Shown here: positions 30,186-46,595 of the stretch, piece after piece
How positions within the stretch are numbered: position 1 is the first letter of the stretch
How the letters are laid out: every line of letters begins with the position of its first letter
Origin: an uncultured Chloroflexia bacterium
Lineage (GTDB): Bacteria; Chloroflexota; Limnocylindria; Limnocylindrales; CSP1-4
Length of the DNA: 64,000 nucleotides
NCBI GenBank assembly: GCA_963768655.1
Contig: CAVYIM010000003.1
Coordinates: 480,001-544,000 of the forward strand
Direction of reading: 5' to 3'
Position numbers and translations under genes: made by a program
Notes under the pieces: model-generated
What the model saw: only the letters and a program-made list of their open reading frames with translations
Databases searched by the model: none
What the model was told of the DNA's origin: nothing

Positions 30186-30260
30186 GGGCCGTTAGCTCAG
30201 TGGTAGAGCCGCCGACTTTTAATCGGCTGGTCGTGGGTCCGAATCCCACACGGCCCTCCA
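30186..30260 (+). tRNA. tRNA-Lys(TTT)
   Basis: Cloverleaf with GGGCCGT/ACGGCCC acceptor stem, anticodon loop CTTTTAA and encoded CCA. Confidence 0.93.
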
Positions 30261-30261
30261 A
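30216..30261 (+). repeat. Left att core (46 bp)
   Basis: CTTTTAATCGG...CGGCCCTCCAA, identical to 46550-46595. Confidence 0.95.
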
Positions 30262-30410: not shown

Positions 30411-31607
30411 GTGGGCCAGGCTACCAAGCCACGCAGATCCGCCGGCGAGGGTGCCATCTACGACACCGCGGACGGACGACTCCGCGGCTCGCTGCTCGTC
30501 CAGTTCCCAGATGGCCGGACCAAGCGCGTCTATGTCAGCGGTCGGACCCGAGCCGAAGTCGTGCGCAAGCTCGATGCCAAGCGCAAGGAAGGCGCGTCCG
30601 GGGCCCTGACGGGTGAGACCCTGGAGGCCTTCCTGACCCGCTGGCTACAGGTTCACGAGACGCGCATCCGCCCATCGACGCAGGCCGAATATCAGCGGAT
30701 CGTCCGGCAGTACTGGCTCGGCGTCAGCTTCACGGCCGACCTCAGGAAGCGAGCGATGACGCGCCTGCAGCCGATCGACGTCGAGCAGCGCATGGCCGAA
30801 CTCCTGGCGCGGAAGCTCTCGCCCACCACTGTCCGCTACGCACGAGGGGTCCTTCGGCGAGCGCTGAATGACGGCATGCGCGAGGGCCTCCTCAATCGCA
30901 ACGTTGCGGCCCTGGCGCGACCGCCCCGACTAGCAGCCCGTGAGATGCGGGCTCTGTCCCCTGCCGAAGCATCGCGACTTCTAAACGGGACCAACGATGA
31001 TCCGATGGGGCCGCTATACGCCCTCGCACTCGGCACCGGATGCCGGCTTGGCGAATTGCTAGGCCTAGCCTGGAGCGACCTCGCGGCCGATGGCTCGGCG
31101 CTGACTGTCCGACGAGCTCTGGCTGAATCCGGTCGAGTCGCCGACGATAAGGGGCACCGGCACACCACATGGAGTCTGGCGGAGCCGAAGACCCGGCGGA
31201 GTCGCCGGACCATCATGGTGCCTACGTTCGTGCGCGAGGCCCTGCGGCGCCAGAAGGCAGCCCAGGCCGCGCAGCGGCTGGCAGCCGGCACAGCGTGGCA
31301 GGACCAGGCCGATCTCATCTTCACCGACGCCATGGGCAATCCTATGCGACCGGATGCGGTATCCCGCATCTTCCACGAGACGGCCACGCGCCTCGGTCTT
31401 CAGCCGGTCCAATTCCACGATCTGCGGCACAGCGCGGCAAGTCTGATGCTCGCCCAAGGCGTCCCATTGAAGACGGTCAGCGAGGCGCTGGGCCATGCCT
31501 CGATCGCCATCACTGCGGACGTCTATGCGCACGTGACTCCAGACCTTCGGCGGGAGGCCGCCGACGCGCTGGACCGAGCGCTGCAAGTGAAGGCCGCGGC
31601 AGACTGA
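30411..31607 (+). CDS. int: Tyrosine integrase
   Basis: GEGAIY, GCRLGEL, FHDLRH, LGHASIAITADVYAH. Confidence 0.96.
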   Translation: MGQATKPRRSAGEGAIYDTADGRLRGSLLVQFPDGRTKRVYVSGRTRAEVVRKLDAKRKEGASGALTGETLEAFLTRWLQVHETRIRPSTQAEYQRIVRQYWLGVSFTADLRKRAMTRLQPIDVEQRMAELLARKLSPTTVRYARGVLRRALNDGMREGLLNRNVAALARPPRLAAREMRALSPAEASRLLNGTNDDPMGPLYALALGTGCRLGELLGLAWSDLAADGSALTVRRALAESGRVADDKGHRHTTWSLAEPKTRRSRRTIMVPTFVREALRRQKAAQAAQRLAAGTAWQDQADLIFTDAMGNPMRPDAVSRIFHETATRLGLQPVQFHDLRHSAASLMLAQGVPLKTVSEALGHASIAITADVYAHVTPDLRREAADALDRALQVKAAAD

Positions 31608-31637
31608 ACGAAAGGACCCATTTGAGCGTCGCTTCGG

Positions 31638-31892
31638 TCACTCGTGCCCTGACGCGACCTCGATGATGGCCGATGACGGAACCAATCGTCGCCGGCCGAC
31701 CTTGACGCTCCTGATGCGTCCCGCCCCGATTTCCGAATAGAGGGCGGTCCGACCGATGCCGAGAGCCCGGGCGGCCTGCTCGATGCTCATCAGGCGATCG
31801 GGCTCGCGCTCACTCGGGCGACGTTCGGTGGCGATCTCATCTCGTAGCGCGGCTACGAGCTCCGCCACGGCCGTCGCGAGCCGGTCGCTCAT
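31638..31892 (-). CDS. xis: Excisionase-family HTH protein
   Basis: LMSIEQAARALGIGRTALY...SVKVGRRRLV. Confidence 0.85.
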   Translation of the reverse strand: MSDRLATAVAELVAALRDEIATERRPSEREPDRLMSIEQAARALGIGRTALYSEIGAGRIRSVKVGRRRLVPSSAIIEVASGHE

Positions 31893-32020
31893 CGGACCAC
31901 GCGCGCTCGAGAGCACGACGGGCAGGAGCGTCGGCCTGTCGATCTGGGCCTGGCTTCGTAACGACTGCCGTCCGGATCGGCGAGGTCGCTCTGGGGCAGG
32001 CTTGCGAATTGGCAGCTCGT

Positions 32021-33482
32021 TCATAGCGCGGACCGATGCCGGGACCAGTGGCGTGCGGCGCGCGTCGACATGATCCGCTTCTGCTCCGACCCAGTAGCAC
32101 CGATGGGCCCCGAACGACCCGACGGGGACGAGCCTCCACGGATACTCGCGGCCACAGCCCGCTCGGCCGGACTCAGCCCCGATCCGGCGTAGTGGAAGCT
32201 CCGCCGGATGACGACCTGGTCGCCGACGGCCTTGGCACGGATCTGGGTGAGCCAGGGGTCGGCCGCGGCTCGATACTCCGCCCGGACGGCTCGCAACGCC
32301 GCGAAGGTGACCGAGTAGCGACGGGCCTTGGTCAGGAAGTGGCCACGGAAGCCCAGGTTATGGGCCCAGCGTGGGCTCAGGGTCCAGGCCGATCGCATCA
32401 GCGCGCGGGCATGATCCGAGAGTTCGGCTCGCTCGATCACTCCCTCCACCCGGATCCGTCGGTCCAGACCACCGCCTGATTGCGCGTCCTTGGTGGCGTA
32501 CTTGGCGAGGTAGCCCGCGACGCCGGCTCCGTGCCCCTCGCCGGCGCGCTGGCCACCGGTGTTCAGCGGTCTCGTGTCGATCTGGCTACCCCAGCGGATC
32601 ACGAGCTCACGTCCACCCGGTCCCGCCACCGTGACCGCTACGCGCGCCGCGGTGCGGGCGACGGCCTCCGCTAGACGCTGCGCCGTCGCTCCGCCCGCGG
32701 GCGCGGTGTCGGGACCGTCGGGGCCGTCGAGCCGGATGACCGCATGGACGTGTACCGATCCACGGGCCTGGAACTCGGCGACCTTGGCATAGGCGACACG
32801 GACCTGGGCTCGCAGGGCCGCTACGCTCAGATCCGCTCAAGGCTGCGAGCTCGCGCGGCAGGTACGTGATCGTTCGCCGCCACAGGGCTCCAAGGTTCGC
32901 GTTCCACAGAGCCGCGGCCTCGTAGTCATAGCAGTCCGGACAGATTGCCTGGCCGATCCGGGGATCGTCCTCGGCGTGACGATCGAGACAGCGCATCGGG
33001 ATGCCGTGCGAGCAAACCTCTGCCTGGCCACCGAGCCGGCAGCTGCGGACGCCACCGGCATCGACAACTCGGCGATGCACCGCCCCGAACGAGGGTGCGG
33101 TGAACGTCGCGAAGACGAGCGGGTGCGAGGCAACCGCGGAGGAGACTCCTCGGGCCTCGTCGCCTCTGAGTCCCGCTGCGACGAGGAAGTAGGCGTCGCG
33201 GCGATACCGCTCCGAGCAGGGCGGACAGCGCGACTCGCGTCGGTTGCCACAGGCGACGAGGACGAAGCCTGGGGCCTGAGACCGCGTCGATCGCCGGGCG
33301 ACGACTGCGCCGGTCCTTGCCGAGACCGCCACCGACTCGCCTTCCAGGCGGATCGGCGAGGTGCAGCCGCCGGTCCGCCGGATCAGTTCCACGACCGCCG
33401 GTGCGCCGGCTCCGTAGCGGTGCGCGAGGACCGCGAGCGGCGCCGGCGATAGAAGCGGCGATGGGGACGCAGGAGGAACCAC
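32021..33482 (-). pseudogene. RepSA-family (pSAM2-like) rolling-circle initiator with a 1-nt frameshift near 32831
   Basis: CGNRRESRCPPC, FATFTAPSFG, CPDCYDY; after the shift KVAEFQARGSVHVHAVIRLDG, YLAKYATK, WAHNLGFRGH; start uncertain. Confidence 0.88.
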
Positions 33483-33493
33483 GGGGACCGGTC

Positions 33494-33919
33494 CTAGCCG
33501 GCCTGCTCGGGGCGGCGCAGAGGCTGCGGGACCTGGGCCTTCGGTGTCGCTGCGCGGACGGCGGTGGCCCGGAACGACCACGCCAGGCGCGGGCGAGAGC
33601 CCGAGGTATCCACGTAGCCGGTTGCCGTCAGGCCCTCGAACGAAACGGCCGGGAACGGCGATCCCGCCGGCGCCTGTGGCAGAACGGGCGGGTTGCGGGC
33701 CGCGATCTTGACCTTCACGACCTTGGTCCGCGCCTCGGGATCGGCGTCGAACACCGAGATCGCCCACAGTGGCAGACCAGTTTCGCGATCGTGCGCCTGG
33801 ACACGCTGCTCTGGCGTAGAGGCATCGAAGTCGATGACTTGCTCTACGGCTCCGATCGCGTATGCCCCCGAAGGGAAGACCTGGTCCATCGTGACGGGGA
33901 TGTGTCTGCCAATTGCCAT
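33494..33919 (-). CDS. AICE-associated 'plasmid replication, integration and excision activator'-like protein
   Basis: VFPSGAY...DRETGLPLW...DADPEA...FEGLTATGY...RLAWSFRA; AAGGAGG RBS; lies upstream of the rep gene. Confidence 0.75.
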   Translation of the reverse strand: MAIGRHIPVTMDQVFPSGAYAIGAVEQVIDFDASTPEQRVQAHDRETGLPLWAISVFDADPEARTKVVKVKIAARNPPVLPQAPAGSPFPAVSFEGLTATGYVDTSGSRPRLAWSFRATAVRAATPKAQVPQPLRRPEQAG

Positions 33920-35990: not shown

Positions 35991-36135
35991 GGCTAGAGCT
36001 ATGGTGCGCCAGCTATTGAGACAGAAAGCCAGCAGGAACACGAGGCCTCATCGGGCGGTCGCATGAGACCAGTGGCCGCCGCAGACGAGTTGGCATGCGA
36101 GTGCCAATGGGACATTCAGGTCGCCACGCGCCGCA

Positions 36136-36326
36136 ACTCCTCTCGCCCCGAAGACACCCAGCACATCCGATGACCCACGGACGAGAGCCAACGCGTCATG
36201 CACAGCGCACCGAGCGCAGAGGCGGCCTGGCGCCGCCCATAGTCACGAGCACGCGGCCCCGGTGGAGACGTGGGATCCAGATCCCCGAGGAGCGGGTTAG
36301 CCTAGGCCCGACTCCTCTCGCCCCGA
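36136..36326 (+). repeat. 16-bp direct repeat ACTCCTCTCGCCCCGA (36136-36151 and 36311-36326), tRNA-Pro 3'-end-like
   Basis: Exact repeat; the second copy extends to ...CCCCGACCA. Confidence 0.8.
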
Positions 36327-37788
36327 CCATAACAACCAATCGAGCCCCATTCCAGGCCCCGTCCCACCCTTGAGCCTTCGCTGACGCGCTCGGGTGCAGC
36401 CTCACTTTCCGAGACCCCAGCACATCGATACGCTCGAAGAGAGCCTCCGCTAGCAGCTTGCGACCGGACGGCTCGGCGTCATCCCAGAGCTTGGGCAACT
36501 CGCGAAGCGACTCGACTGCCTCTTGCGGTGTCAGCCCGCCGGCGCGTTCGCCTCTGGCGGCCTGCTCTTCCTGATCGAGCGCCCGCATGGTCGCCTCGAG
36601 GGCATCCGGGTCGCGGTCGCGGCGGTAGCGGGCCATGGCGGCATCACGATCGCGCTCGATGCGCGCGAGGGTCACCGGATCGGGTCCGGACTCATCGGCG
36701 CCGAGCCGGTCAACGACGGCACCCGCAAGCTCGGCATTGGCGCTGACATAGCCCAGAGCCTGGCGGACGAGCCCCTCGAACGCCTCGGCTGGATAGCTCA
36801 CGCCCTTGTGGCGCTTGTCGGTCGAGTTGCGAAAGACCCGTGGCGCGGGCCGTCCGGCGCCCAGCCAATCAGGGCAAGGGAAGTTGTGCCGATAGCGGGC
36901 TTGCTGGCCGATGAGGTGACGGCCGCAGGCGGCGCAGTGGAGCATCGAGAGCGCATAGGGCCGCCGGGTTGTCGGGCGGCCCGGATGGCGGCGGCTGAAC
37001 CGGGAGCGGGCGAGCTGCACGCGGTCCCAGGTGAGCTGATCGATCACGGCCGGAACACGAGTCGCGGTGCCATCACGCAGCCGGCCGATATAGACCGGGT
37101 TGGTCAGGATGCCCCGTGCGGTGTAGAACGGCAGTCCTGTCGCCTCGGCGACTTGCGCGTCGGTCATGCCCTCGGCCGCAGCTGCGAAGGCGGCGCGGAC
37201 CCGCTCGATCTGGGCGGGCACCGGCTCCAGGACCGGCGGCCTGCCGGATCTGATGTAGCCGTATGGCGGCTGGCCGCCGGGCTCACCCAGACGGCGGCGC
37301 TTGGCGGCGAGACCCTCGGATACGCGACGGCCGAGCTTGCGGCTGTAGGACTCGGCCTCGTGAGCCTCCCGCACGAAGTCGTCCCAGCGGTCCGAGTCGG
37401 TGCTGATGATCCGCTCGTCGCAGAACAGGACCGCTACCCCGGCGGCGTGGAGGTCATCGACCGCGATGAGGGTTTGCTTGAGGTTGCGCTGGAAGCGGCT
37501 CACATACCCGACCAGGAGCAGGTCGTATCGGCCTGCTCGCGCGGCTTCGGTCATTGCCGCGAACTCGGGCGCCTGGTACACGGTCCGGCCCGAGGCGGCG
37601 CTCTGCCAGACAAGCCCGGTGTCGACGAGGCCAAAGCGCTCGATGGTCCGGTCCTGAAGCTCGCGCTGGGAGTCCGGACCCCAGTTGTCGTACTGCCCGG
37701 TGGTGGACTCGCGTACCCAGCGGGCCACGCGTAGCCCGGCGATCTGGTCGGTGGAGCGGGGCAGGGCGTGCACGATAGGGCGAGTCAT
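36196..37788 (-). CDS. Large serine recombinase
   Basis: WVRESTTGQ (catalytic Ser), SRFQRN, PPYGY, ILTNPVYIG, LHCAACG ribbon, coiled coil. Confidence 0.92.
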   Translation of the reverse strand: MTRPIVHALPRSTDQIAGLRVARWVRESTTGQYDNWGPDSQRELQDRTIERFGLVDTGLVWQSAASGRTVYQAPEFAAMTEAARAGRYDLLLVGYVSRFQRNLKQTLIAVDDLHAAGVAVLFCDERIISTDSDRWDDFVREAHEAESYSRKLGRRVSEGLAAKRRRLGEPGGQPPYGYIRSGRPPVLEPVPAQIERVRAAFAAAAEGMTDAQVAEATGLPFYTARGILTNPVYIGRLRDGTATRVPAVIDQLTWDRVQLARSRFSRRHPGRPTTRRPYALSMLHCAACGRHLIGQQARYRHNFPCPDWLGAGRPAPRVFRNSTDKRHKGVSYPAEAFEGLVRQALGYVSANAELAGAVVDRLGADESGPDPVTLARIERDRDAAMARYRRDRDPDALEATMRALDQEEQAARGERAGGLTPQEAVESLRELPKLWDDAEPSGRKLLAEALFERIDVLGSRKVRLHPSASAKAQGWDGAWNGARLVVMVGARGVGPRLTRSSGIWIPRLHRGRVLVTMGGARPPLRSVRCA

Positions 37789-37968
37789 AGCTCAATCACG
37801 GCATAGAGTCCAGAGACCGGCGGCCGGCCCGGCGGGCGTGAGCCTGGCGGATGCAGACCGCCAGCGCCCGGACCAGCGGGTCAGGGGCAGCCAACCCGGC
37901 GGACTCCCGCGCCGGAACCAGCCGGCCCTGACGTTGCCCGGCTCCGTTGGACCGCCGGGCCTGGCCGC

Positions 37969-38874
37969 TCATCGGGCCTTGCCGCCTTGCCGGCCGGCTC
38001 TGGCTGGCTTGCGGCCGGCTGCAGGGTTCCGGCTGGGGCCGTGCGTGCTGGCACCACCCTGGACCTTGGCTGGTCGCGCGCCGGATGTAGCTGGCTTTCG
38101 GCTGGGCGCTGGCTTGCGGGCGGCTGAACGTCTGCCGGACGAGGCTGGCTTGGGGTTGGCCGTTGGCTTGCCGCCCGGTTTCGTCGAGCTTCCTCGCTGG
38201 GCACGGGGGCCAGCCTGGGCCAGCCTGGTGCTGGCCAGGCGGACCGCCCGCTGGGCCACGTCTCCACCGACCACGCTCGCTCCCCGCTCTGCGGCTCCCA
38301 CCAGCAGGGCTCCCGAGCCGCAGAAGGGGTCCACCACCAGGGAACCCCTGCCAATGGCGGCCATCGCGGCTAGCTCACGGCCCAGGCCATCGGGCTTCAT
38401 CGTCGGATACCGTCCAGCCGTGCCAGGCCCGACAGCGGCCACCGATACGAGATCAACGCCAGAGAGAGTCCGGGAGCCAGCAAGGCGCCCAACCAGCACG
38501 AACTCGGTCTGGTGGCGCAGGCCAGCCCCGAGCCCTGGGTACTGACGGTCCCAGGTGATGGTCCGGATGCCGGAGAAGCCAGCCCGCTCCAAGGCGCCGA
38601 TGGCCTCGTGCAGGCCGTCGTTGTTGGTCATGGCCATGAGGACCCCATGGGGCTTGAGCTTGCGGCGGGCAAGCGCGAAGACCCGCCCGATCTGGGGCCA
38701 GGTCAGGCCGCCCGTGAACCAGTCGCGCAGGTGACCGCTGGTCGGGCTGCGGTTGATGCTCGTATACGGCGGGTCCGTGATGACGAGATCGATCGAGCGA
38801 TCGGGCAGCGAGCCCAACAGGCGTTCGGCCGAGACCAGCTCGACGCGGACACGCTCGGACGGCTTAGTGCTCAT
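37969..38874 (-). CDS. Beta-class N6/N4 DNA methyltransferase with basic low-complexity tail
   Basis: DLVITDPPY, YPTMKP, DPFCGSG; start overlaps the rep stop. Confidence 0.88.
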   Translation of the reverse strand: MSTKPSERVRVELVSAERLLGSLPDRSIDLVITDPPYTSINRSPTSGHLRDWFTGGLTWPQIGRVFALARRKLKPHGVLMAMTNNDGLHEAIGALERAGFSGIRTITWDRQYPGLGAGLRHQTEFVLVGRLAGSRTLSGVDLVSVAAVGPGTAGRYPTMKPDGLGRELAAMAAIGRGSLVVDPFCGSGALLVGAAERGASVVGGDVAQRAVRLASTRLAQAGPRAQRGSSTKPGGKPTANPKPASSGRRSAARKPAPSRKPATSGARPAKVQGGASTHGPSRNPAAGRKPARAGRQGGKAR

Positions 38875-40336
38875 AGGGCAGTCCTCCCTCAGGCGGTGGA
38901 GTCCAGGCATACCCTCCACCGGGTAGCCGGTGCGTTTCGAGGCGGCGACGAACGATCGGGAACTCCCAGTCGTCTTCGGTCGTGGCGGCGCCGCAGGTGG
39001 GGCAGATGCGCGGCACGCGGTATTGCTCGAAGCCGAGGTCTCGCAGGACCAGCTCGTCGGCACGCGGCGGTTCTTGCTCTTCGACCTGGACGCGGTAGAG
39101 CGAGCCGAAGCCGGAGACGAGCTTCTGGCGGCGGGTGGCCCAGACGTACTCCCCGATCCGCTCGGGGTCGAGTGAGTCGACGATCCCGTGGGGCTTGCCC
39201 ACGTACTTGAGGACCTCTCGGATCGCACCCTGGCGCGCGGCCGGATCGTCGCGGCTGACGGCCTCCACCCAGACCGACCAGGAGCCCTCGCAGCGCGAGC
39301 TACGGCCATGGCGGCAGTGCTCCCGCTTGCAGGTGATGGTCTGCCAGGTGTCGCGCATCTCGCCCCAGTCGATCCAGGGCGAGTCCATGAGGGTGTGGAG
39401 GTGGGGATGCCAGGTCATCGTGTCTTCGGCGAAGGTGAGATCGCAGGCGACGGCGCCTCCGGCGACCCGCTCGTGGCGATAGGTCTCGCAGTTGCGGTCG
39501 CGGCGGTGGCCCGCATGGACGCATTGCCGCGGGCAGCCTTGGGCGTGGACTTCGCTTGGCGGGTGCACCGGGCAGCGGCTCCGCTGTCGGCCGGTCCGGG
39601 TGGGGCAGCCGGGTTCGCAGCCGGCGGCATGCGCCTCACCCCCGCGGGCGCTGCAGCCCTCGACGCAACGAGGCAGCCGGCAGTCCGGCGCCGCTACCGG
39701 AAGATGGCAAGGATGACCGGGCGCGCCGTCGGGTTCGCCATCGGGTCCGAGGGCGGGCCAGCGCCAGCGGCACGCTCCGCCCGCGATGATGGCCCGGCGA
39801 CGGAGCCTACCGAAGTCGCTCCTCAGCCGCCGAATGCCGGCCTCCAGCTCACCCTGCGCGACGTTGCGAATGGTGAACGTCCAGAAGGCCGGCCGCGCCA
39901 TCTTCTGGGCGAGAGCGTCGTATCGCTCCAGAAGACGGGCCACTCGGGCTCGTTCGCAGTCGGGACAACCCCGGACGTGGCAGGAGAAGGGCGTAGCGAC
40001 GCCAGACCCGCAGCCCTGATGGACGAGAACCCGGACCTGGGTGCAGTCGCGCAGGGCTCCGGCCCGCTCGTCGAACCAGAAGGCGCGCTCCACCTCGCGC
40101 TCCTCGTGAGCGCGACGGCCGCACTCGGAAAGAACATCCGCGAGGTCGAGCTTCGACGCCTCGCGTTGCGCCGGATCGCGGAAGAGCTTGGAGAGTGGGT
40201 CCGCTTGTCCTCTTTGGCGCCTTCTGCGGGCCGATTTCGTGCTGCCACTGTTGGCTTGGTGCCATGTATGGACAGAAGTGGGATGCGCGCGCCGGGCGGG
40301 GACGGGAGCAGTTGCGAGCGCCACCAGACCGTTCAC
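38864..40336 (-). CDS. HUH rolling-circle replication protein (Rep_1-like) with Cys/His-rich insertion
   Basis: CHVRGCPDC, motif I FWTFT, motif II WHPHLHTLM, motif III EVLKYVGK, C-terminal CPTCG. Confidence 0.88.
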   Translation of the reverse strand: MNGLVALATAPVPARRAHPTSVHTWHQANSGSTKSARRRRQRGQADPLSKLFRDPAQREASKLDLADVLSECGRRAHEEREVERAFWFDERAGALRDCTQVRVLVHQGCGSGVATPFSCHVRGCPDCERARVARLLERYDALAQKMARPAFWTFTIRNVAQGELEAGIRRLRSDFGRLRRRAIIAGGACRWRWPALGPDGEPDGAPGHPCHLPVAAPDCRLPRCVEGCSARGGEAHAAGCEPGCPTRTGRQRSRCPVHPPSEVHAQGCPRQCVHAGHRRDRNCETYRHERVAGGAVACDLTFAEDTMTWHPHLHTLMDSPWIDWGEMRDTWQTITCKREHCRHGRSSRCEGSWSVWVEAVSRDDPAARQGAIREVLKYVGKPHGIVDSLDPERIGEYVWATRRQKLVSGFGSLYRVQVEEQEPPRADELVLRDLGFEQYRVPRICPTCGAATTEDDWEFPIVRRRLETHRLPGGGYAWTPPPEGGLPYEH

Positions 40337-40557
40337 GGCTGTGCGCCCCGCCGTTCACACTTAGGGCGCGAAGTGGGCCGATGGCCCATCGCAGGAGTGA
40401 AAGAGGCCTGGCGTGCCTTCAGAGCGCCAGACGCGGGATGATCGGGCCTACTCGCGAGACTCAGACGCTTGCGGCACAGATCGGTGCAGGTCCGACGGTC
40501 TGCCCGGCTCCATGTCGGGAGGGGCGTGCCACAGGAGCGGCAGCGGCCCTTGTTCAT
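40333..40557 (-). CDS. Small Zn-finger protein
   Basis: CRSCG...RTCTDLCR; ATGA coupling on both sides. Confidence 0.7.
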   Translation of the reverse strand: MNKGRCRSCGTPLPTWSRADRRTCTDLCRKRLSLASRPDHPASGALKARQASFTPAMGHRPTSRPKCERRGAQP

Positions 40558-40751
40558 TGGAGGAACCTCGTCGCAAGGACCGCGCCCATGGCTTCCGCGT
40601 CAGAGCGCAACCTCGTCTCGCAGGCCCGGCAACGCGGCCGGCTGCACTTCGCTCGGGATTTCCAGGCATGGCCGCAGCGGGCGCAGACACGCCACGGCCG
40701 GAGCGTCACCTGGACCGTCAGAACCGCTGTTTCGTCTCGCACGCTTGTCAT
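40554..40751 (-). CDS. Small Zn-ribbon protein
   Basis: CARCGHAW...PRCRAC; GAGAGGG RBS. Confidence 0.65.
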   Translation of the reverse strand: MTSVRDETAVLTVQVTLRPWRVCARCGHAWKSRAKCSRPRCRACETRLRSDAEAMGAVLATRFLQ

Positions 40752-40837
40752 CTCGACCCTCTCGTTCGTCGGGCGCAGAGGGTTTCTTACAGCGACAATT
40801 GACGTCGAGGCAAACCAGCCGGCCTCGCGGCCGAGCA

Positions 40838-41941
40838 ATGCTCATGCGTGGAACGCGAGAATTGAGCGTGGAAAGTCACGAGGAATTGAGGGCCCGCGGA
40901 AAGGCCTTTCGGCGCGAGCTGGCGGCCTGGCTCATGGCCGATCCGGAAGACAAACCGGACGGGCGGCCCGCCCTGTCGTCCATTCGTCTCACGCGCAGCT
41001 CCCTCTCCGGCGGCGAGGCGTGGGTCGGCAATGCAGCCGTCTCCCTCGATCCCAAGGTCCTGTCGGCACTCGCGTCGGATCGCGACTCGCCCTTCTACGA
41101 CTCGCTCTTCGGGACCGTCCTGCGCGCCTCCGAGCGGGCTATCGATCCGTCGCGCTGGTCCGAGCGAACGGAGCCTCTCATCGTTCGGTATGGACGGGTT
41201 CGGGTCGGGCTCTTCGATTGGACGACCGATCGCGACGCCTTCATCGAGGCGCTACTGGGTCGGCCGGTTCCGTCGACGCCGAGATACGAGCAGCGGGGAC
41301 CGATCCTGCCTGTGATGTCGAGGAGCGACTTCGACTCCGTCCGCGAGCTGCTCGGGGCACGGATGGAGGACAAGATCGCCCTTCTCCACGTAACCGGAGC
41401 CAGGATCGCAAACGGGCTCGACCCTCTCGTGAAGCTGGCAGCGGCCACCTCGTGTTGCGATCCGGTTCGAGCTGCCGTCGGGTATGCGCTGCTGCGCATC
41501 GACCCCCAGGGTTTCGCAGCATCACCATCGGGTCGGATGACGCTGCGGGCCATGGGGGCGGCACCGCGGGGGCGCACGCCTCGGCTAGACATGGAGCTTG
41601 CCGGCGTCTTCGACATCGACCTTGCCGGCTATCTCGGGCTGGTCTTCTGGAGCGGCGCGAAGCAGCTGCGCTCATACCGGGCCACCATGGCGGCGCATCT
41701 GCGGTATCTGTTCGACTACGAGGTCGCGCCACAATGCCGCTGGCCCGACGAGCGCACGCGGCGCGAGGCGCTGATGGTCTGGTTCATGGATCGGTTGGCC
41801 CGCTTGGCGGAGCCTGGTCAGCGCGTTACCAGATCGAAGATCGCCCGGGCCTTGCGCCGGGAGCACCCAGGCGACTACGAAGGCGAAAACGAGGCTGTGA
41901 CTGTCCGTAGGGTGTACCGAGTTTCGGCAAAGCTTACGTAA
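40838..41941 (+). CDS. Hypothetical protein, possible C-terminal HTH
   Basis: Long ORF with globular composition, divergent from the rep operon; start at 40838 or 40868. Confidence 0.65.
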   Translation: MLMRGTRELSVESHEELRARGKAFRRELAAWLMADPEDKPDGRPALSSIRLTRSSLSGGEAWVGNAAVSLDPKVLSALASDRDSPFYDSLFGTVLRASERAIDPSRWSERTEPLIVRYGRVRVGLFDWTTDRDAFIEALLGRPVPSTPRYEQRGPILPVMSRSDFDSVRELLGARMEDKIALLHVTGARIANGLDPLVKLAAATSCCDPVRAAVGYALLRIDPQGFAASPSGRMTLRAMGAAPRGRTPRLDMELAGVFDIDLAGYLGLVFWSGAKQLRSYRATMAAHLRYLFDYEVAPQCRWPDERTRREALMVWFMDRLARLAEPGQRVTRSKIARALRREHPGDYEGENEAVTVRRVYRVSAKLT

Positions 41942-42385
41942 GAGCGACCCAAGTCGAACAATTCAGGCGACCAGCAGACCATGGCTGGGAGGCGAGCTAC
42001 TTCGCGAAGACGCGTCCGCCCGGTCGCGGCCCGCCGAGGGCCGGCAGGAGGCAACCCGTGTGTCGTCCGCCAGATCGTCGCTTCCGACCGAATTCTAGGA
42101 GGCGCGCCGCACCAATTCGCAGCAACCGCCCGCAGGGGTGCGGGAACTAGCCACCCTGGGGGCGTGCATCTGAATCCCGGCGAGCCAGAACTGGGCGACG
42201 TGCCTCTTGTCGGTGACGACGACGTGGCCCTCGCCTGTAGAGACTTGCTGGTAGTCCACCTGAACGACCGCCTAGCAGAGGCCTGGCAGTCGACAACATC
42301 GGCGAGTCCGCGGAAGCCACGTTCCCCGTTCCTGCCAACAATCTGGCGTTCGTTTTGCACAACATGTTGGGAGGGAGTTGCGCTG

Positions 42386-42868
42386 GTGAACACAGACGCG
42401 TTCGACGACCGATATGAGGAGCTGCTCGCGGACTTGCGTCGCGTGTGCCGGGCGGTCGGTGCCGGGGACGAAGCGGAGGACGTGGCTCAGGAGACGCTCT
42501 GGTATGCCAGGGCCCGGCTAAGCGAGCTCCGTGATGACTCGAGACTGGTGCCTTGGCTAAGGAAGATCGCAGTGCGCCACGCCTGGCGGGCTCATGGGAG
42601 GCCCGTCGAAGACCTCCATAGCGTCCTCATCGCGGCACCGACGATCCCCGTCGAGCTTGCCATCGACGAGCGTCGCGCATTGGTTGCCCTCCCACGACGT
42701 GAGCGGGAGGTCGTGATGCTGGTGTACATCGCTGGCTTTCGAGAGGAAGAGGTGGCATCGATGCTCGGCGTGTCAAGAGGAACGGTGGCGAAGACTCTCT
42801 GGAGAGCCCGATGCAGCCTCTCTCGATCACTATCGGACTACTCAAGGAGCGGAATGCCATGTGGTTGA
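42386..42868 (+). CDS. ECF sigma factor, paralogue of 6804-7310
   Basis: DLRRVCRAVGAG..AEDVAQET..LRDDSRLVPWLRKIA; GGAGGG RBS. Confidence 0.9.
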   Translation: MNTDAFDDRYEELLADLRRVCRAVGAGDEAEDVAQETLWYARARLSELRDDSRLVPWLRKIAVRHAWRAHGRPVEDLHSVLIAAPTIPVELAIDERRALVALPRREREVVMLVYIAGFREEEVASMLGVSRGTVAKTLWRARCSLSRSLSDYSRSGMPCG

Positions 42869-44262
42869 AAGCCCGCGGCCATCTCGATGACGAATGCATC
42901 TCCAGGTTTGTAGACCATGTGCGGGAGCTCAATTCACGCCAGCGTAGCCACCTCGACAAGTGCGACGCATGTCGCGCCAGGGTCGAAGGACACAGGCGGG
43001 CGCGCGACATGCTGCTCCGATTGAACGAAACAGTGCCTCTGCCGACATCCGGCCGCAGGAGTGGCCTTCGTGAGGCTGGAGCTCATCCGCTTCTGGTGGC
43101 CGGTGCCGCCGTGATCGTGATGGTCCTAGTCGTAAAGGTTGTCGTGGCTGGCCGTGGCGGCTACGTTAGCGCTGACTTGGGTGCGGCCACAGCCAAATCC
43201 ACCACGCCGTCGCCATCCTCGTCCGCCTCGCCATCCTCGTCCGCCTCGCCGTCCCCTTACTACAGCGGCGACTGGATTAGGCTTGGATCATCTGAGGTCA
43301 TGGGCGTGGTATGGTCGCCTGACGGTTCGCATCTGTTGGTCTGGTCCGAGCCCTATGCTGGGCAGACGCGCCACTTCCAGTTGCTCGATGCCAACGGTAG
43401 CGTGGTGAGGTCATTCGACGCGGAGGCTGCCGCTTGGATGGATTCGAGCACGTACGTCGTCCAAGAGTCAAGCACATCGCTCTTCGAAGGTCTCGGCAAC
43501 AACCAGGAGGCTAATGCGGGGGTATCGCTGGGCTCGGGATTGCTCAGCAACGGCCATGGAGCCGTCGCGTACATAGCGAACGATGGACAGGCGGTCTCGG
43601 ATCGACCCGGGCTTTCGGATCGGTTCGCCGTTCTCACCCGCAACGGCGCGACGCAGCCGATGCCAGGACGTCCAGCGGCGTGGTCGGAGGATGGCAGCGA
43701 GCTTGCTGTCTGGCACTACACCAGTGGATCTGGAGGAGTGGGAGGGCAGCCCTCAGGGTCGATGTCGGTGCTCGAATGGCCGGGATTGAGACAACTCGCA
43801 CAGTGGCCGGACATTGCCGTGGGCTCGACTCCCGTTCGCTTTGATCCAACCGGACGATACCTTGAGGTTGCCGGGTCGGCGTTTAGCATCCTGGACATCG
43901 CGACGGGTCGCGTTGTACGACCCAGTGGTGCTACTGGCCAGACGCCCGTCTGGGACGCCTCCTCTCACCTCATCGTCCCGAGACTCGATGGGACCGCGGC
44001 TACGTATGCCCTGGACGGCAGCCTCAAGGCGACGCAGGCGGCGGCAAATTCTGCAGCGGGCTCGGCGAACGGACAGACCGTGCTGTACTTCTGGTGGGAG
44101 TCACAGCGACCAATTCTCGTATCGATTGGCGCCTCTGTGCGAGATGTCGATGTGCCGGGAGTCCTCTGGACCTACCCGGAGGTGTCAGCCGACGGATCGA
44201 GGATCGCTATTCTGTGTCGTGTTTCGTCTGACTATGAAGCGTTTCTCCTCACGAGCCAGTAG
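42859..44262 (+). CDS. ZAS anti-sigma with TM and beta-propeller-like domain, paralogue of 7307-8953
   Basis: HLDKCDAC, TM, WSPDGSHLLVW, WSEDG. Confidence 0.8.
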   Translation: MWLKARGHLDDECISRFVDHVRELNSRQRSHLDKCDACRARVEGHRRARDMLLRLNETVPLPTSGRRSGLREAGAHPLLVAGAAVIVMVLVVKVVVAGRGGYVSADLGAATAKSTTPSPSSSASPSSSASPSPYYSGDWIRLGSSEVMGVVWSPDGSHLLVWSEPYAGQTRHFQLLDANGSVVRSFDAEAAAWMDSSTYVVQESSTSLFEGLGNNQEANAGVSLGSGLLSNGHGAVAYIANDGQAVSDRPGLSDRFAVLTRNGATQPMPGRPAAWSEDGSELAVWHYTSGSGGVGGQPSGSMSVLEWPGLRQLAQWPDIAVGSTPVRFDPTGRYLEVAGSAFSILDIATGRVVRPSGATGQTPVWDASSHLIVPRLDGTAATYALDGSLKATQAAANSAAGSANGQTVLYFWWESQRPILVSIGASVRDVDVPGVLWTYPEVSADGSRIAILCRVSSDYEAFLLTSQ

Positions 44263-44495
44263 ACGAGTGCAGGTTCCGCCGGTTCTGCCACCTGATTCCG
44301 TCGCGGACTGAGGTGGCCAATTCCGTGGAGTGCGCAGACGAGGGCGGTTGCGCGGCCGGGCTCGTGAATTCACGGCACAGAAATGTCAATCGAGTGGAGG
44401 TGCCACGCCTACTTCGGCAACTTCTGCATGACGGGCGCCGAGACACTGACCGACCCCGGCGCCCATCATACGATCATATGTGCCCCACACCAGTC

Positions 44496-45829
44496 TCAGT
44501 TGGCCTGGGCAGTGCTCACTTTGTATGCATGCCCACTGATGGGGTCAACATAAACGTCACCGCCACTGCCGTCCTGTCCATGCACGAACGGCGTAAAGGG
44601 CGAATTGCTGCCATCAATTGACGCCCAGACAAGGTGCCCGTCCCCATGCAGCCCGGCCGTCTGCATGATACTCCCCCGCTCAGTCGTCGAAGTCAGATCC
44701 CAGCCATCGGGAAGCGTGGAGGCTCCTGCATATGTGTAGCCGTTGGGGCCGTCGGCCACCATCGCGACTGCACGAACTTCCGCCCCCACCCGGACCTCAA
44801 CGAGCTCGTATGGCGCAACATCCGGCGAGAACGAGTCGACATGAGTAATGGCTCCGAGCGTGTAGCCTGTCAGGTCAATTCCGAGCCTGCCCTTGTCCAC
44901 TTCGTTCACGGCCAAGCCGTCGGCTACTGCGGCGGCTACTGTCGGTCGGGTTATGGCGGGCCCGAGCATCTTGCCGCTCATCGTGTCCTGAGTCACTGAC
45001 GTTGATCTGCTTGTCTGACCCGCCGTCGCTGCTGCTGCTGCCGCTCCGTTGTACTGGCTGGCCTGCCAATCGCCGTACGTCTCGCCCGGGCTGTCGCTGG
45101 GGACGGCATTCGCATACATCTGAAGAACGGTTACGTAGTAACTCGTCCAGAAGGGCCCCGCACCACCATAGCCACTCATGTTCGGACTCAGCCAGGAGCT
45201 CGTGTTCCAGGTCGAGATGGGAACGTTCGAATGCGCGTTCGTGTATGGATCGAACACGTAGAAACTGCTGATTGAGTCGGTGCCGTCAGAAAACGGGTCT
45301 CGAGTCGTGACGTAACCAGTGGTCAGGATCGCGTGACGTCCGGAATTGACGATAGCGCCATCAGGTCGCCCGGTTCCCCTAATGCCGTAGACCAGTTCCC
45401 AGTCTGCCGTGAAGGCACTGCTGTACCGGTAGTCGTTGAAGAACCAATTGCCAGGTGTATGCCAGTAAAGTGCCCAGCCTCGCCACGCGGATCGTGACCA
45501 TAGGTGCCGCTACCATCAGAGCACGGGCCGCTACTGTGCGCCTTCCAGTTGTACTTGTCCCCTTGGGAACTGTTGTCGACGGTGCTGGTTATCTGCGCGC
45601 TTAGCGACGATTGACTGGGATGAGTGGCACCGGGCACGTAATTCAGCCATGACAGGCTCGAAGCCACGACGCACCAACACGCCGTTTGCTGGTGGACGTC
45701 ATACCCGGACTGCCAGGAGTCTTGAGTGTACGCAGCAGCTCCCGCTGGCGAGAGGCCGGCCATCAAGAACGCCAGGGCGGTCGCGGCGAACGCGCGATTC
45801 CGCTGGCTCGGCCCTGCAAAGTGCACCAT
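44496..45829 (-). pseudogene. Secreted papain-like (C39-like) peptidase with a 1-nt deletion near 45477
   Basis: Signal peptide, QQTACWCVVAS; after frame correction WALYW...GRHAILTTGY...YVFDP joins ORF 44496-45257. Confidence 0.72.
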
Positions 45830-46432
45830 AGGAAGTCCTCCCCGCACAGACACGCTCTGTCGACGGATGTCTGCGCCTACCTCTGGGCGATCATGTCCAC
45901 GCGCCCTCTGCACGTGGTGCTCGCCCAGAGGAAGCGTATCACCCGCTCTGTTCTCGGGGAAAGCTCCGGCGTGTGACGGGCAGGCCGTCGCTACGACAGC
46001 CGCTTTGTCGGCTGCAATATCCAAGGCTGGACAGCAAGGATGGGGACGGCGACCGCGGATCGGAGTGACGTTCGACCTCAGCGGTCAGCAACACCCAACA
46101 TGGCGAGGATCCAGAAAGAGCACCGACACGGCCAAGATCCAGACTCGGTGACCCAGTCTCTGGATCATGTCAGCGTTTTGCCGCCCCCATCGACGAGCAA
46201 GTGGAGTGTAACCCCCGGGTGCGCAGTCAGGCGCCCGTCGCGCCGACCACTACGGCTACGGTCGGGCGGTGCGCGTGGATCATCCGCCTCGCAGGGCGTC
46301 GATCATGGCAGCCGAGGATGTCGCATCTGGAACCACCCCGCGAAGATCGGCCGGCTAGCTTGTTATCTCGGCCTCAAGTCCAGTGGAGTCGACCAACTCT
46401 TCCGTCCCAAGCGTCCGGAGGCGCAGCTCGTC

Positions 46433-46520
46433 TGGCAGCTTCGTTGGCATCTTCGCCCGCGAACGGTAGCGGTCAGGAACCATCCAAATAGAACGCCGCC
46501 CACGCATAAATAGAACGCCG
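46433..46520 (+). promoter_or_regulatory. Putative arm-type and Xis-binding repeats (right)
   Basis: TGGCAGCTTCG-T-TGGCATCTTCG; AAATAGAACGCCG twice at a 22-bp period (46486, 46508). Confidence 0.65.
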
Positions 46521-46549
46521 ACGAACACCCGCGACCTCTCTGGTGCGCC

Positions 46550-46595
46550 CTTTTAATCGGCTGGTCGTGGGTCCGAATCCCACACGGCCCTCCAA
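46550..46595 (+). repeat. Right att core, duplicated 3' half of tRNA-Lys
   Basis: 46-bp identity with 30216-30261. Confidence 0.95.

What the first reader, a model, noticed from the sequence alone, without database searches (positions are those of the whole stretch)
36290..36335. tRNA-Pro-like 3' end embedded in the serine recombinase coding sequence
Seen: the + strand at 36313-36329 reads TCCTCTCGCCCCGACCA inside the last ~45 codons of the recombinase (MVGARGV), preceded by GGCCCGAC rather than a T-loop. Known from memory: bacterial tRNA-Pro genes commonly end GGTTCRAATCCTCTCGCCCCGACCA. Inference: this is an attP core inside the gene. Integration into tRNA-Pro would swap the enzyme's C-terminus (GARGVGP... 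to GARGFEP...), giving a possible state-dependent directionality or stability switch. No tRNA is adjacent, so the site looks unrecombined and the module may have entered the island by another route.
Basis: partly seen in the sequence, partly recalled or inferred. Interest (0 to 1): 0.78.

Follow-up and report, generated by a model that had tools for sequence, protein, structure and literature searches.

The report
tRNA-Pro attachment core inside recombinase gene
The 17 bases are the 3' end of this bacterial group's proline tRNA (anticodon CGG), carried within the last conserved codons of a serine integrase as the docking site of mobile elements that pile up in rows next to that tRNA; here one such element sits at a second site inside another island.

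Summary
TCCTCTCGCCCCGACCA lies at 36313-36329, as codons M487-G492 of a 530-aa large serine recombinase.

It is no chance match. The genome holds 12 copies at one mismatch or fewer; the reversed control gives 0. 23 of 24 sampled genus relatives hold it, up to 27 copies each, often in same-strand rows.

In relatives the 17-mer is the exact 3' end of tRNA-Pro(CGG). Homologous recombinase genes converge on that tRNA. Of 33 junctions, 30 read MVGARG exactly and 3 differ by one residue. All then diverge, and the predicted GARG-FEP tail occurs at the tRNA.

So the "att core inside the gene" reading holds. The "unrecombined" reading does not:
- The element's own other arm (module B) lies 10 kb away at 46358-46378.
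- The element (36313-46378) interrupts a site that is continuous in two relatives.
- Its present 38-residue tail comes from an unrelated 175-bp unit (module A).
- It sits inside a 16.3-kb tRNA-Lys island.

The crossover is inferred at GG, core positions 15-16. A functional tail switch is untested.

A 2015 paper I read in passages states that serine integrases were not known to target tRNA genes. I rate this a new variant of a known kind.

The parts
36313..36329 (-). 17-bp core. The + strand reads TCCTCTCGCCCCGACCA, the 3' end of tRNA-Pro(CGG) (T-loop position 60 to CCA). The - strand reads TGGTCGGGGCGAGAGGA, codons M487-G492 of the recombinase. It is the inner part of the P arm. The inferred crossover is at G15G16 of the - strand reading (36315-36314).
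36196..37788 (-). Large serine recombinase gene, 530 aa. The conserved body is residues 1-492. Residues 493-530 are encoded by module A, and the stop is at 36196-36198.
36330..36341 (-). Outer part of the P arm (- strand GATTGGTTGTTA, codons for RLVV). TTGTTAT is the inverted partner of ATAACAA in module B.
36155..36312 (-). Module A, 158 nt. It starts with a P'-like arm (GTCGGGCCTAGGCTAACCCGC), holds the palindrome GGGGATCTGGATCCC at 36272-36286, and supplies the present 38-residue tail of the recombinase. It is a separate repeated unit, not part of this element.
36138..36154 (-). Degenerate second core (- strand TCTTCGGGGCGAGAGGA) closing the ~175-bp A unit.
36103..36137 (-). Module C' (- strand GTTGCGGCGCGTGGCGACCTGAATGTCCCA...), a left-arm type found at the start of many cassettes elsewhere. 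Here it continues into the tRNA-Lys island.
46358..46378 (-). Module B (- strand CTTGAGGCCGAGATAACAAGC). This is the P' arm and left end of the recombinase element. In the recombinase frame it would read LEAEITS plus a stop.
46379..46395 (-). Variant core (- strand TGGTCGACTCCACTGGA) at the left junction. It shares only TGGTCG and the final GGA with the canonical core.
36313..46378 (-). The integrated serine-recombinase element, 10,066 bp. Gene order on the - strand: module B, unknown ORFs, ECF-sigma-like ORF 41981-42868 (+), Rep_1/Zn_Tnp_IS91-like ORF 38864-40336, N6_N4 DNA methylase ORF 37969-39309, recombinase, core.
46396..46549 (-). Segment X, the end of the tRNA-Lys island next to its attR. 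In relatives it forms a recurrent secondary target, joined after the same GGA to A, B, tRNA-like or C'-like arms.
30216..30261 (+). attL of the host island: the 3' 46 nt of tRNA-Lys(TTT), whose gene is at 30186-30260.
46550..46595 (+). attR of the host island: an exact 46-nt repeat of the tRNA-Lys 3' part. The island is 16.3 kb.
30411..33767 (.). Backbone of the host island: tyrosine integrase 30411-31607 (+), HTH_17 (Xis-like) 31638-32024 (-), and pSAM2-type RepSA split into two ORFs, 32021-32629 and 32607-33767 (-).

Best explanation
The 17-mer is the 3' end of the genus' tRNA-Pro(CGG). It is the shared attachment core of a family of roughly 10-14 kb integrative elements, each with a large serine recombinase (LSR) gene at its right end. 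The last conserved codons of that gene (LVVMVGARG) are the P arm of the element's attP. They double as a spare tRNA 3' end that rebuilds the tRNA after integration. The element's left end (module B here) is the P' arm. Inferred steps: the enzyme cuts at a GG two bases from the end of the core (tRNA positions 61-62); the rebuilt tRNA end stays a usable target; so elements, and cassettes without a recombinase, pile up in same-strand rows. In this window the element (36313-46378) is not at tRNA-Pro. It is integrated at a secondary site next to the attR end of a tRNA-Lys island that has a tyrosine integrase and RepSA. Whether it regulates anything is not shown.
For: Shown.
(1) tRNA identity. G001:C6 has tRNA-Pro(CGG) at c[81007,81083] ending with the 17-mer, overlapped by the end of a recombinase 86% identical to ours. 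ARAGORN calls the tRNA in 5 of 5 such loci, including one whose recombinase is only 50% identical (L019), and in 4 of 15 named-MAG loci. In the sister family, 9 of 9 fetched 17-mer loci are tRNA-Pro genes, 5 CGG and 4 TGG.
(2) Breakpoint. Close homologues (81-87% identity) align only to residues 1 to ~498. All 33 junctions diverge after (M)VGARG. VMVGARG is invariant across 11 proteins down to 48% identity.
(3) Tandem rows. G001:C6 has cores at 28, 13837, 39231, 43068, 54831, 68797 and 81007, all on one strand. Recombinase genes end at four of them, and module B sits directly after the core that opens each of three recombinase-bearing intervals.
(4) Same element family. The right 5.6 kb of the window element (Rep_1-like gene, part of the methylase, recombinase) matches those three G001 elements at 68-83%.
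(5) Recombined state. Module B lies behind a variant core at 46358-46395. X and A are continuous in L036 and L039. In a metagenome contig the same B end continues into the canonical core, diverging from the window directly after GGA (run X2, place 46381).
(6) LSR nature. The RESTxGQ serine motif and C285xxC288...H301...C305 are invariant. The top 9 Foldseek hits are full-length serine integrases, E 3e-9 to 2e-6. No tyrosine-recombinase domain lies inside the element.
Inferred: the crossover at G15G16.
- The best dyad centre of a natural P-core-B junction falls between core positions 15 and 16: 14 of 24 matches, with outer TTGTTAT/ATAACAA matching 7 of 7.
- The left and right junctions of the window element share only GGA.
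- The first letter of the 17-mer is changed in 12 of the 47 listed one-mismatch copies, against 24 changes over the 15 inner letters (my hand count).
Against: - No recombination was observed. Contigs of four metagenome runs gave no joints across 36313-46378.
- The two 'empty' loci are only about 80% (X) and 88% (A) identical to the window. Their last ~40 nt before GGA do not align with the window's. They show the kind of site, not the exact pre-insertion allele.
- This assembly has no tRNA-Pro(CGG), so the primary target is inferred from relatives.
- Pfam scores the Recombinase domain below its cut-off (17.5 against 21.1 bits) and finds no zinc-ribbon family.
- The structure model is poor, mean pLDDT 59.
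- From my recall of the field, known LSR att sites usually share only a few bases. A 15-17 bp shared core is unusual, and I explain it by the need to rebuild the tRNA.
- Cassettes without a recombinase carry a different sequence before the core (hairpin GTAGGnnnnCCTAC plus CTGAA or TCGAA). Another enzyme may therefore act on the same core.
- 14 of 24 dyad matches is only moderately above what scanning many centres would give.
Confidence: 0.78

Rival explanations
1. The site is a virgin attP: the element has not recombined here and reached the island by another route. The present C-terminus would be the 'free-state' form.
For: The recombinase ORF is intact at 530 aa. A relative (G024:C15) keeps the same body-core-A arrangement with an 83%-identical 530-aa ORF. 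No tRNA-Pro is adjacent. Module A begins with a P'-like arm, with 11 of 21 positions equal to module B by my own reading.
Against: Module A also occurs without any recombinase body: at G000 C2, C6 and C8, and as tail-only matches in G003, G012, G016, G017 and G020. It is a ~175-bp unit closed by its own degenerate core. In the G001 row, module B directly follows the core that opens each of three recombinase-bearing intervals. An exact module B lies 10 kb upstream in the window. X and A are continuous in L036 and L039.
Confidence: 0.07
2. The tRNA-Pro fragments belong to att sites made by another recombinase, such as a tyrosine integrase acting in trans. On this view the serine recombinase gene merely sits at the element's end, overlapping a tRNA fragment it does not use.
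For: tRNA 3'-end targeting with a long identity block is the hallmark of tyrosine integrases; the Islander paper says only these are known to target tRNA genes (PMC4383910, passages read). Most cassettes in the rows have no serine recombinase and have a different sequence before the core. Tyrosine recombinase genes lie 2.5-6 kb from two other cores in G000, at C7 72332-72835 and C6 182422-182931.
Against: Recombinases only 48-50% identical to ours also end with VMVGARG on the core, and some of them abut the tRNA. No PF00589 hit lies inside the 10-kb element. The two junctions of the window element share only 3 bases. From my recall, that fits a 2-base serine-recombinase crossover and not the 6-8 base overlap of tyrosine enzymes. 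The P and B arms form a dyad of the LSR attP type.
Confidence: 0.1
3. The 17-mer is a dispersed repeat of another kind (an intergenic REP or MIRU-like unit, a ribosome-binding motif, or a small RNA), and its likeness to tRNA-Pro is chance.
For: The - strand reads GAGAGGA, which resembles a Shine-Dalgarno sequence. Copies are mostly intergenic and often sit just after a gene on the same strand. Homology between copies always starts at the core and runs one way.
Against: The 17-mer is the exact end of ARAGORN-called tRNA-Pro genes in two families. Flanks switch exactly at the core, and copies sit in same-strand rows that include recombinase genes and, in G001:C6, end at the tRNA. Rfam gave no hit. 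Module A shows no fold signal, z about 0.
Confidence: 0.02

Closest known systems
Myxophage Mx8 IntP/IntX (tyrosine integrase with attP inside int)
   Same: attP lies within the integrase coding sequence, so integration gives the gene a new 3' end and the protein a new C-terminus (PMC6070905, passages read; PMC4383910 cites Tojo 1996). That the Mx8 target is a tRNA-Asp locus is my recall.
   Different: Mx8 uses a tyrosine recombinase, whereas this is a large serine recombinase. Here only the residues after position 492 change. No change in activity has been shown here.
SSV-type archaeal integrases ('suicidal' integrases)
   Same: The recombination site lies inside the integrase ORF, and the target is a tRNA gene (PMC7253208, search listing and start of abstract only; PMC4383910 passage).
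   Different: SSV integration splits the gene into two pieces and inactivates it. Here the whole conserved protein stays intact and only a tail is exchanged. SSV enzymes are tyrosine recombinases of archaeal viruses.
tRNA-gene genomic islands as defined by Islander
   Same: The element carries a copy of the tRNA 3' end, so integration rebuilds the tRNA. A displaced fragment in direct orientation marks the far end, and tandem arrays occur (PMC4383910 passages).
   Different: [quoted passage not shown] Here the on-board enzyme is a serine recombinase. The rows are much longer than the database's arrays, where only 4 of 3919 islands were in tandems of 3 or more.
SCC elements with Ccr large serine recombinases (SCCmec; enterococcal cassette chromosome)
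   Same: From recall: LSR-driven integration at the 3' end of a conserved gene, which is rebuilt; direct repeats of about 15-18 bp; composite rows including units without a recombinase. The enterococcal paper PMC6222049 was seen only as a search listing.
   Different: The SCC target is the protein gene rlmH/orfX, not a tRNA. The ccr genes lie inside the element and do not carry the att core in their own codons.
Tandem accretion of ICE/IME with CIMEs (cis-mobilizable elements)
   Same: Decayed elements keep attL and attR and stay in rows with intact elements at the end of a target gene (PMC5704250 passages).
   Different: The described cases are mostly tyrosine-integrase elements of Firmicutes. 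According to the same review, serine-recombinase IMEs interrupt dispensable genes rather than rebuild the target.
PhiC31 / Bxb1-type phage serine integrases
   Same: Fold-level match over the whole length; an N-terminal catalytic serine domain; an attP with imperfect dyad symmetry.
   Different: Sequence identity is only 13-16% in the Foldseek alignments. From recall, their targets are protein genes, and their attP is not inside the integrase ORF.
phiRv1 serine integrase targeting the REP13E12 repeat of Mycobacterium tuberculosis (recalled, not checked in a call)
   Same: A large serine integrase with several chromosomal copies of its target, so it has primary and secondary sites.
   Different: That target is a repeated element, not a tRNA, and no in-gene attP is involved.

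Membership tests
Large serine recombinase (serine integrase) | N-terminal resolvase-type catalytic domain with the nucleophilic serine | tested here: met
   Pfam Resolvase PF00239, residues 25-166, E 1.3e-13. PDB sequence hits to serine recombinases and PhiC31 integrase. R26-E27-S28-T29-x-G31-Q32 is invariant in 11 homologues. Equating S28 with S10 of Bxb1 and S12 of PhiC31 rests on the motif, not on a structural superposition.
Large serine recombinase (serine integrase) | Recombinase domain following the catalytic domain | tested here: inconclusive
   Pfam PF07508 gives E 0.0052 and 17.5 bits, below the 21.1-bit cut-off. Foldseek alignments to full-length integrases span about 550 columns, but the model is of low confidence.
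Large serine recombinase (serine integrase) | Zinc-ribbon domain with an embedded coiled coil | tested here: inconclusive
   No Pfam zinc-ribbon hit. C285, C288, H301 and C305 are invariant. Long helices 371-450 are modelled with pLDDT up to 93. Metal binding could not be tested.
Large serine recombinase (serine integrase) | att sites with imperfect dyad symmetry and a 2-bp crossover | tested here: inconclusive
   The dyad centre lies between core positions 15 and 16, with 14 of 24 matches. The junctions of the window element share only GGA. The cleavage position was not measured.
Large serine recombinase (serine integrase) | Recombination directionality factor for excision | not tested
   No candidate was identified. 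Several element ORFs have no Pfam or PHROG hit.
tRNA-gene-targeting integrative element (Islander signature) | Intact tRNA gene at one end and a displaced tRNA fragment in direct orientation at the other, with an integrase gene on board | tested here: met
   Met for relatives: G001:C6 has tRNA-Pro(CGG) at 81007-81083, six further cores on the same strand, and recombinase genes inside. Not met for the window copy, which is at a secondary site with no tRNA-Pro.
tRNA-gene-targeting integrative element (Islander signature) | The element's own sequence rebuilds the tRNA | tested here: met
   The tRNA end overlapping the recombinase gene is identical to the 17-mer, and ARAGORN accepts the gene in 5 of 5 loci. 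tRNA function was not tested.
Integron | Tyrosine integrase IntI with an adjacent attI, and attC hairpin sites bounding promoterless cassettes | tested here: not met
   The enzyme is a serine recombinase. Cassettes of 1.4-24 kb hold genes on both strands. The repeated site derives from a tRNA. Only the row-of-cassettes layout is alike.
AICE (pSAM2-type integrative element), for the host island 30216-46595 only | Tyrosine integrase, Xis and RepSA next to a tRNA att site, plus an FtsK-like transfer gene | tested here: inconclusive
   Int, an HTH_17 protein and RepSA are present, but RepSA is split into two ORFs. tRNA-Lys repeats bound the island. No transfer gene was found among the ORFs scanned.

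The most novel reading that the evidence does not exclude
These Chloroflexota (records titled Chloroflexia / Ca. Limnocylindrales) may run a serine-recombinase, tRNA-anchored cassette system. Because the integrase's last conserved codons are the tRNA-Pro(CGG) 3' end, every integration would rebuild a still-usable target. Autonomous elements and recombinase-less cargo cassettes (toxin-antitoxin, sigma factors, reductases) would then accrete into rows of 8 or more units and spread to secondary sites, including landing pads beside the attP of other integrative elements, on which they could hitch-hike. Internal P-P' junctions look like attP, so the enzyme alone might excise the unit next to the tRNA without a directionality factor. 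The state-dependent C-terminal tail (LEAEITS when free, a tRNA-antisense tail at the tRNA, the A tail here) and convergent tRNA transcription might tune activity, as in Mx8.
Probability: 0.3. Interest if true: 0.78.

Novelty: new variant of a known kind. Interest (0 to 1): 0.62.

Why it matters
tRNA genes are the classic landing sites of genomic islands. The Islander paper (2015; passages read) states that only tyrosine integrases are known to use them.

This is a family of large serine recombinases that converge on tRNA-Pro(CGG). They carry the replacement tRNA end inside their own last codons, and they are tied to same-strand rows of up to 8 cores on a single contig. This extends that rule.

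It also gives a second, independent case of the Mx8/SSV principle of attP inside int, now in the other recombinase superfamily.

It would matter for three reasons:
- Island-finding software restricted to tyrosine integrases would miss these islands.
- It bears on how accessory genes move in little-studied peat and freshwater Chloroflexota.
- It may interest integrase engineering: here is a serine integrase whose natural target is a conserved 30-40 bp tRNA site, with a family of natural arm variants that map its tolerance.

Tried and rejected
- **Rfam** on 35800-36700, both strands, at E up to 10: no match.
- **RNA structure for module A**: alifold of 8 copies shows mostly G-U changes, and the single-sequence z-score is about 0 on both strands. 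Rejected as a structured RNA.
- **Protein coding for module A**: third codon positions vary somewhat more (17 against 11 and 9). However, one copy has +1/-1 indels, and no long ORF ends there in the 'empty' loci. Left open.
- **A 'WDIQV' frame across module C'**: open frames are short and not conserved upstream. Rejected as a gene end.
- **PHROGs** on 8 island or element ORFs: no hit.
- **Pfam** on the remaining element ORFs: only an ECF-sigma-like protein.
- **Excision or circular joints in public runs**: contigs of 4 metagenome runs gave no joints. These are short Logan contigs, so this says nothing about activity.
- **Synteny** to place the missing tRNA-Pro(CGG) of G000: megablast of the G001 interval between its two tRNA-Pro genes gave no hit. 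My earlier guess in the notebook is withdrawn.
- **The hairpin before cassette cores as the native tRNA trailer**: the sister family's trailers are unlike it. Rejected.
- **A second element in G000** (C4 529953-542884): only the recombinase is alike at DNA level, 79% over 1577 nt. It shares the arms but not the cargo.
- **Literature**: searches found no paper describing a serine integrase that targets a tRNA gene. The one double hit (PMC3091744, passages read) is irrelevant. One search found nothing on mobile elements of Limnocylindria.
- **Corrections to my notebook**: there are 8, not 9, exact copies in G000. The variant core is at 46379-46395, not 46376-46392. One search used an element 14 nt too long.
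- **Report hand-in**: I corrected it and sent the same report again.
Full report
**1. The observation**

The + strand reads TCCTCTCGCCCCGACCA at 36313-36329, preceded by ggcccgac. The stretch lies in ORF 36196..37788 on the - strand, 530 aa, whose end reads ...ARLVVMVGARGVGPRLTRSSGIWIPRL...SVRCA. By codon arithmetic from that ORF, the 17-mer covers M487 (from its second base) to G492.

Pfam finds a Resolvase N-terminal domain. The window has no tRNA-Pro, only tRNA-Lys(TTT) at 30186-30260 and tRNA-Met at 59836-59910. A near copy, TCCTCTCGCCCCGAAGA, lies 175 bp away at 36138-36154 on the same strand.

Inside the window alone the count is not remarkable: 2 hits at 3 mismatches or fewer, against 0.66 expected, with 14 of 100 shuffles reaching 2.

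**2. It is a repeat, and it is a tRNA end**

In the whole genome (3.37 Mb, 9 contigs, 88.6% complete) the 17-mer occurs 8 times exactly and 4 times with one mismatch. The reversed control gives 0.

The assembled tRNA-Pro(TGG) and tRNA-Pro(GGG) genes share only CGCCCCGACCA with it. A 69-nt 'tRNA-Pro cgg' call at C3 247196 looks false. No full tRNA-Pro(CGG) is assembled; the longest match is 25 nt at C3 687350-687374.

Across 40 relatives:
- 23 of 24 same-genus genomes hold the 17-mer at one mismatch or fewer, with up to 27 copies.
- 13 of 16 genomes of a small-genome sister family hold 1-2 copies.
- The reversed control gave one hit in all.

In the sister family all 9 fetched loci are real tRNA-Pro genes, 5 CGG and 4 TGG, each ending with the 17-mer.

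In the genus, G001:C6 has tRNA-Pro(CGG) at c[81007,81083]. A recombinase gene 86% identical to ours (79548-81047) runs into its 3' end from the other side.

**3. Homologues break exactly at the motif**

- Homologues at E 1e-10 or better occur in 18 of 24 genus genomes and in 0 of 16 sister-family genomes.
- The closest ones (81-87% identity) align only to residues 1 to ~498. One (G024:C15) keeps all 530 residues. Separate matches to residues ~486-530 alone occur in five other genomes and at three further places in G000.
- A 25-nt stretch (outer P arm plus core, 2 mismatches or fewer) occurs in 25 of 51 genus genomes.
- In the fetched loci I found 33 distinct junctions. Thirty read MVGARG and three differ by one residue. 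The sequence after GGA falls into classes:
  - tRNA body: 5, plus 2 partial tRNA-like arms
  - type E: 5
  - type A: 2
  - type C': 2
  - type B: 1
  - others: 16, many of which keep CCTCCGACC as in the tRNA
- ARAGORN calls tRNA-Pro(CGG) in 5 of 5 of the tRNA-body loci and in 0 of 5 other arms tested, two of them the partial tRNA-like arms. It also calls it in 4 of 15 loci from named MAG records.
- The tails are FEPPTSSSRTMRATKLRHAP... at the tRNA, LEAEITS plus stop with arm B, and VGPRLTRSSGIWIPRL... with arm A.

**4. Anatomy of the elements**

Read on the recombinase strand, homology between copies always begins at the core and runs downstream. I call these downstream modules A (about 160-200 nt), B (about 21-24 nt after the core), C', D and E.

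In G001:C6 the cores at 28, 13837, 39231, 43068, 54831, 68797 and 81007 all lie on one strand, and the last is inside the tRNA. Recombinase genes end at 13837, 54831 and 81007 (85-87% identity) and at 68797 (45%). Module B directly follows the core at 28, 43068 and 68797.

An element is therefore [left arm ... cargo ... recombinase body]-core, and elements stand in tandem.

Other rows (G006:C22 and G007:C69, 8 cores each) have no homologue of this recombinase by tblastn. Their units are 1.4-24 kb and carry varied cargo:
- ORFs whose sequences, by my reading, look like PIN-type toxins, sigma and anti-sigma factors, aldo-keto reductases and dehydrogenases. These were not scanned against a family library.
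- A hairpin GTAGGnnnnCCTAC plus CTGAA or TCGAA directly before the core.

In assemblies with few contigs the cores form one main row plus a few scattered sites.

**5. What the window holds**

The 3' 46 nt of tRNA-Lys (30216-30261) recur exactly at 46550-46595, bounding a 16.3-kb island. The island carries a tyrosine integrase, an HTH_17 protein and a split pSAM2-type RepSA.

Inside it, read on the - strand, the order is:
1. segment X (46549-46396)
2. a variant core TGGTCGACTCCACTGGA (46395-46379)
3. an exact module B (46378-46358)
4. about 10 kb, with a Rep_1/Zn_Tnp_IS91-like ORF, a DNA methylase and the recombinase
5. the canonical core (36329-36313)
6. module A (36312-36155)
7. a degenerate core (36154-36138)
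8. module C'

The right 5.6 kb matches the three B-type elements of G001 at 68-83%. No tyrosine-recombinase domain lies inside.

Segment X has homologues in 17 of 50 other genus genomes. Across the 8 loci read, the same ...CTACTGGA is followed by:
- module A in 2 (L036, L039)
- module B in 2 (the window and L040)
- a tRNA-like arm in 1 (L041)
- a C'-like arm in 1 (L042)
- other sequence in 2 (L037, L038)

In L036, X (81% identity over 120 nt) and A (88% over 186 nt) are 38 nt apart, with no 10-kb insert.

A metagenome contig carries the same B end followed by the canonical core, leaving the window's sequence directly after GGA (run X2, place 46381). Another contig carries A plus core followed by a hairpin-type cassette end (run X1, place 36330).

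Hence the element 36313-46378 (10,066 bp) is integrated at a secondary site. The junction under study is a recombinant one: the element's P arm joined to a foreign arm.

Module A with its degenerate core is a ~175-bp unit found on its own in many places. It may be a miniature element reduced to its two arms; this is inference.

**6. The enzyme**

- Invariant residues in 11 homologues down to 48% identity include R26-E27-S28-T29-G31-Q32, S97-R98-R101, C285, C288, H301, C305, and V486-G492.
- PDB sequence hits are to serine recombinases and PhiC31 integrase.
- The AlphaFold model is weak (mean pLDDT 59), with residues 483-530 below 50.
- Its top nine Foldseek hits are full-length serine integrases, including PhiC31 and Bxb1 complexes, with E from 3e-9 to 2e-6.
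- Pfam's Recombinase domain is below cut-off, and no zinc-ribbon family is hit.

I file it as a large serine recombinase, with two domains supported only indirectly.

**7. Mechanism: shown and inferred**

Shown: the last conserved codons of the gene are the tRNA 3' end, and the flanks switch at the core.

Inferred: the crossover is at G15G16 of TGGTCGGGGCGAGAGGA, which is CC at tRNA positions 61-62. Three lines agree.
- The best dyad centre of a natural P-core-B junction lies between positions 15 and 16. It has 14 of 24 matches, and the outer TTGTTAT/ATAACAA match 7 of 7.
- The two junctions of the window element share only GGA.
- In the 47 listed one-mismatch copies, the first letter is changed 12 times and the last 11 times. 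The 15 inner letters together are changed 24 times (my hand count). The constrained block thus starts just 3' of the proposed cut.

Inferred: the long identity exists because the element must rebuild the tRNA, not because the enzyme needs it.

Inferred: the rebuilt end remains a target, which would explain the rows.

The tail after G492 depends on the neighbour and is modelled without confidence. A regulatory role is possible by analogy with Mx8 but untested. Convergent tRNA transcription is another untested state-dependent effect.

**8. Comparison and novelty**

Papers read in passages:
- A myxophage review says that Mx8 integration creates a new 3' end of int and alters the enzyme's behaviour (PMC6070905).
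- A review of mobilizable elements describes CIMEs and tandem accretion, and says serine-recombinase elements usually disrupt dispensable genes (PMC5704250).

My searches found no report of a serine integrase targeting a tRNA gene. Supplements and the TIGER tables were not visible to me.

Records of relatives are titled as MAGs of Chloroflexia / Ca. Limnocylindrales. One, at 75% identity, is titled Ca. Sulfotelmatobacter.

I rate this a new variant of a known kind: in-gene attP, tRNA targeting and accretion are each known, but not in this combination with a serine recombinase.

**9. Limits**

All of this is comparative. No recombination was seen, and no joints appeared in four runs of short contigs. 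The primary target is missing from this assembly. The 'empty' loci are orthologous, not identical. The agent that moves the recombinase-less cassettes is unknown.

Noticed in passing
window 30186-33767 and 46550-46595: A 16.3-kb island sits at tRNA-Lys(TTT), bounded by exact 46-nt direct repeats. It has a tyrosine integrase, an HTH_17 protein and a pSAM2-type RepSA split into two overlapping ORFs, which is probably a frameshift. This AICE-like backbone lies in a genome whose relatives are titled Chloroflexia / Limnocylindrales. No transfer gene was found.
   Followed up: partly
window 28938-30020 (+): A DDE_3 transposase with HTH_32, HTH_28 and HTH_29 domains; IS630-like is my own label. It lies directly upstream of the tRNA-Lys gene.
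   Followed up: no
window 36155-36312, and copies at G000 C2 55305-, C6 188400-, C8 96126-, C4 545440-: Module A is a conserved ~160-nt unit with the palindrome GGGGATCTGGATCCC; both sides are changed together in the C4 copy. It keeps the same stop in the recombinase frame. No RNA-fold signal and no long ORF were found. Its function is unknown.
   Followed up: partly
G006:C22 (L033-L034), G007:C69 (L030-L032), G001:C6 (L022-L026): Same-strand rows of 7-8 cores bound cargo cassettes of 1.4-24 kb. In G006:C22 and G007:C69 no homologue of this recombinase was found. Most cassettes end with the hairpin GTAGGnnnnCCTAC plus CTGAA or TCGAA directly before the core.
   Followed up: partly
G000 C9 44317-45239; L033 13473-14014; L030 11982-12524: A nearly identical 138-aa ORF (VPRAVLDTNVLVSALISPGG...), which I judge PIN-like from its sequence only, lies directly beside a core in three genomes. 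The units differ in size: about 0.9, 4.6 and 3.2 kb.
   Followed up: no
G000 C4 541422-545528: A second copy of the recombinase (82% identity) has a frameshift near residue 79. A 2.5-kb insertion sits at its core, separating it from a truncated module A. Its left boundary, with a B-type arm, lies at C4 529953.
   Followed up: partly
G000 C8 90827-96239: A fragment of a 44%-identical recombinase end (residues 428-498) sits at core 91002. It is followed by a 5.1-kb C'-type cassette, then core 96109 plus module A. This is the same nesting pattern as in the window.
   Followed up: partly
G000 C3 247196-247264: ARAGORN calls a 69-nt 'tRNA-Pro (cgg)' here. Its sequence does not look like a tRNA-Pro (no CGGGG start, no GGTTCGAATCC). 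The real tRNA-Pro(CGG) appears to be missing from the assembly.
   Followed up: partly
L078 (record titled Ca. Sulfotelmatobacter, 47.9-kb contig): A 75%-identical recombinase abuts a tRNA-Pro(CGG) nearly identical to that of the Chloroflexota relatives. This is either transfer across phyla or a mis-binned contig.
   Followed up: no
window 37969-39309 and 38864-40336 (-): The methylase ORF and the Rep_1-like ORF overlap by 446 nt as listed. One of the two starts is probably called too far upstream.
   Followed up: no
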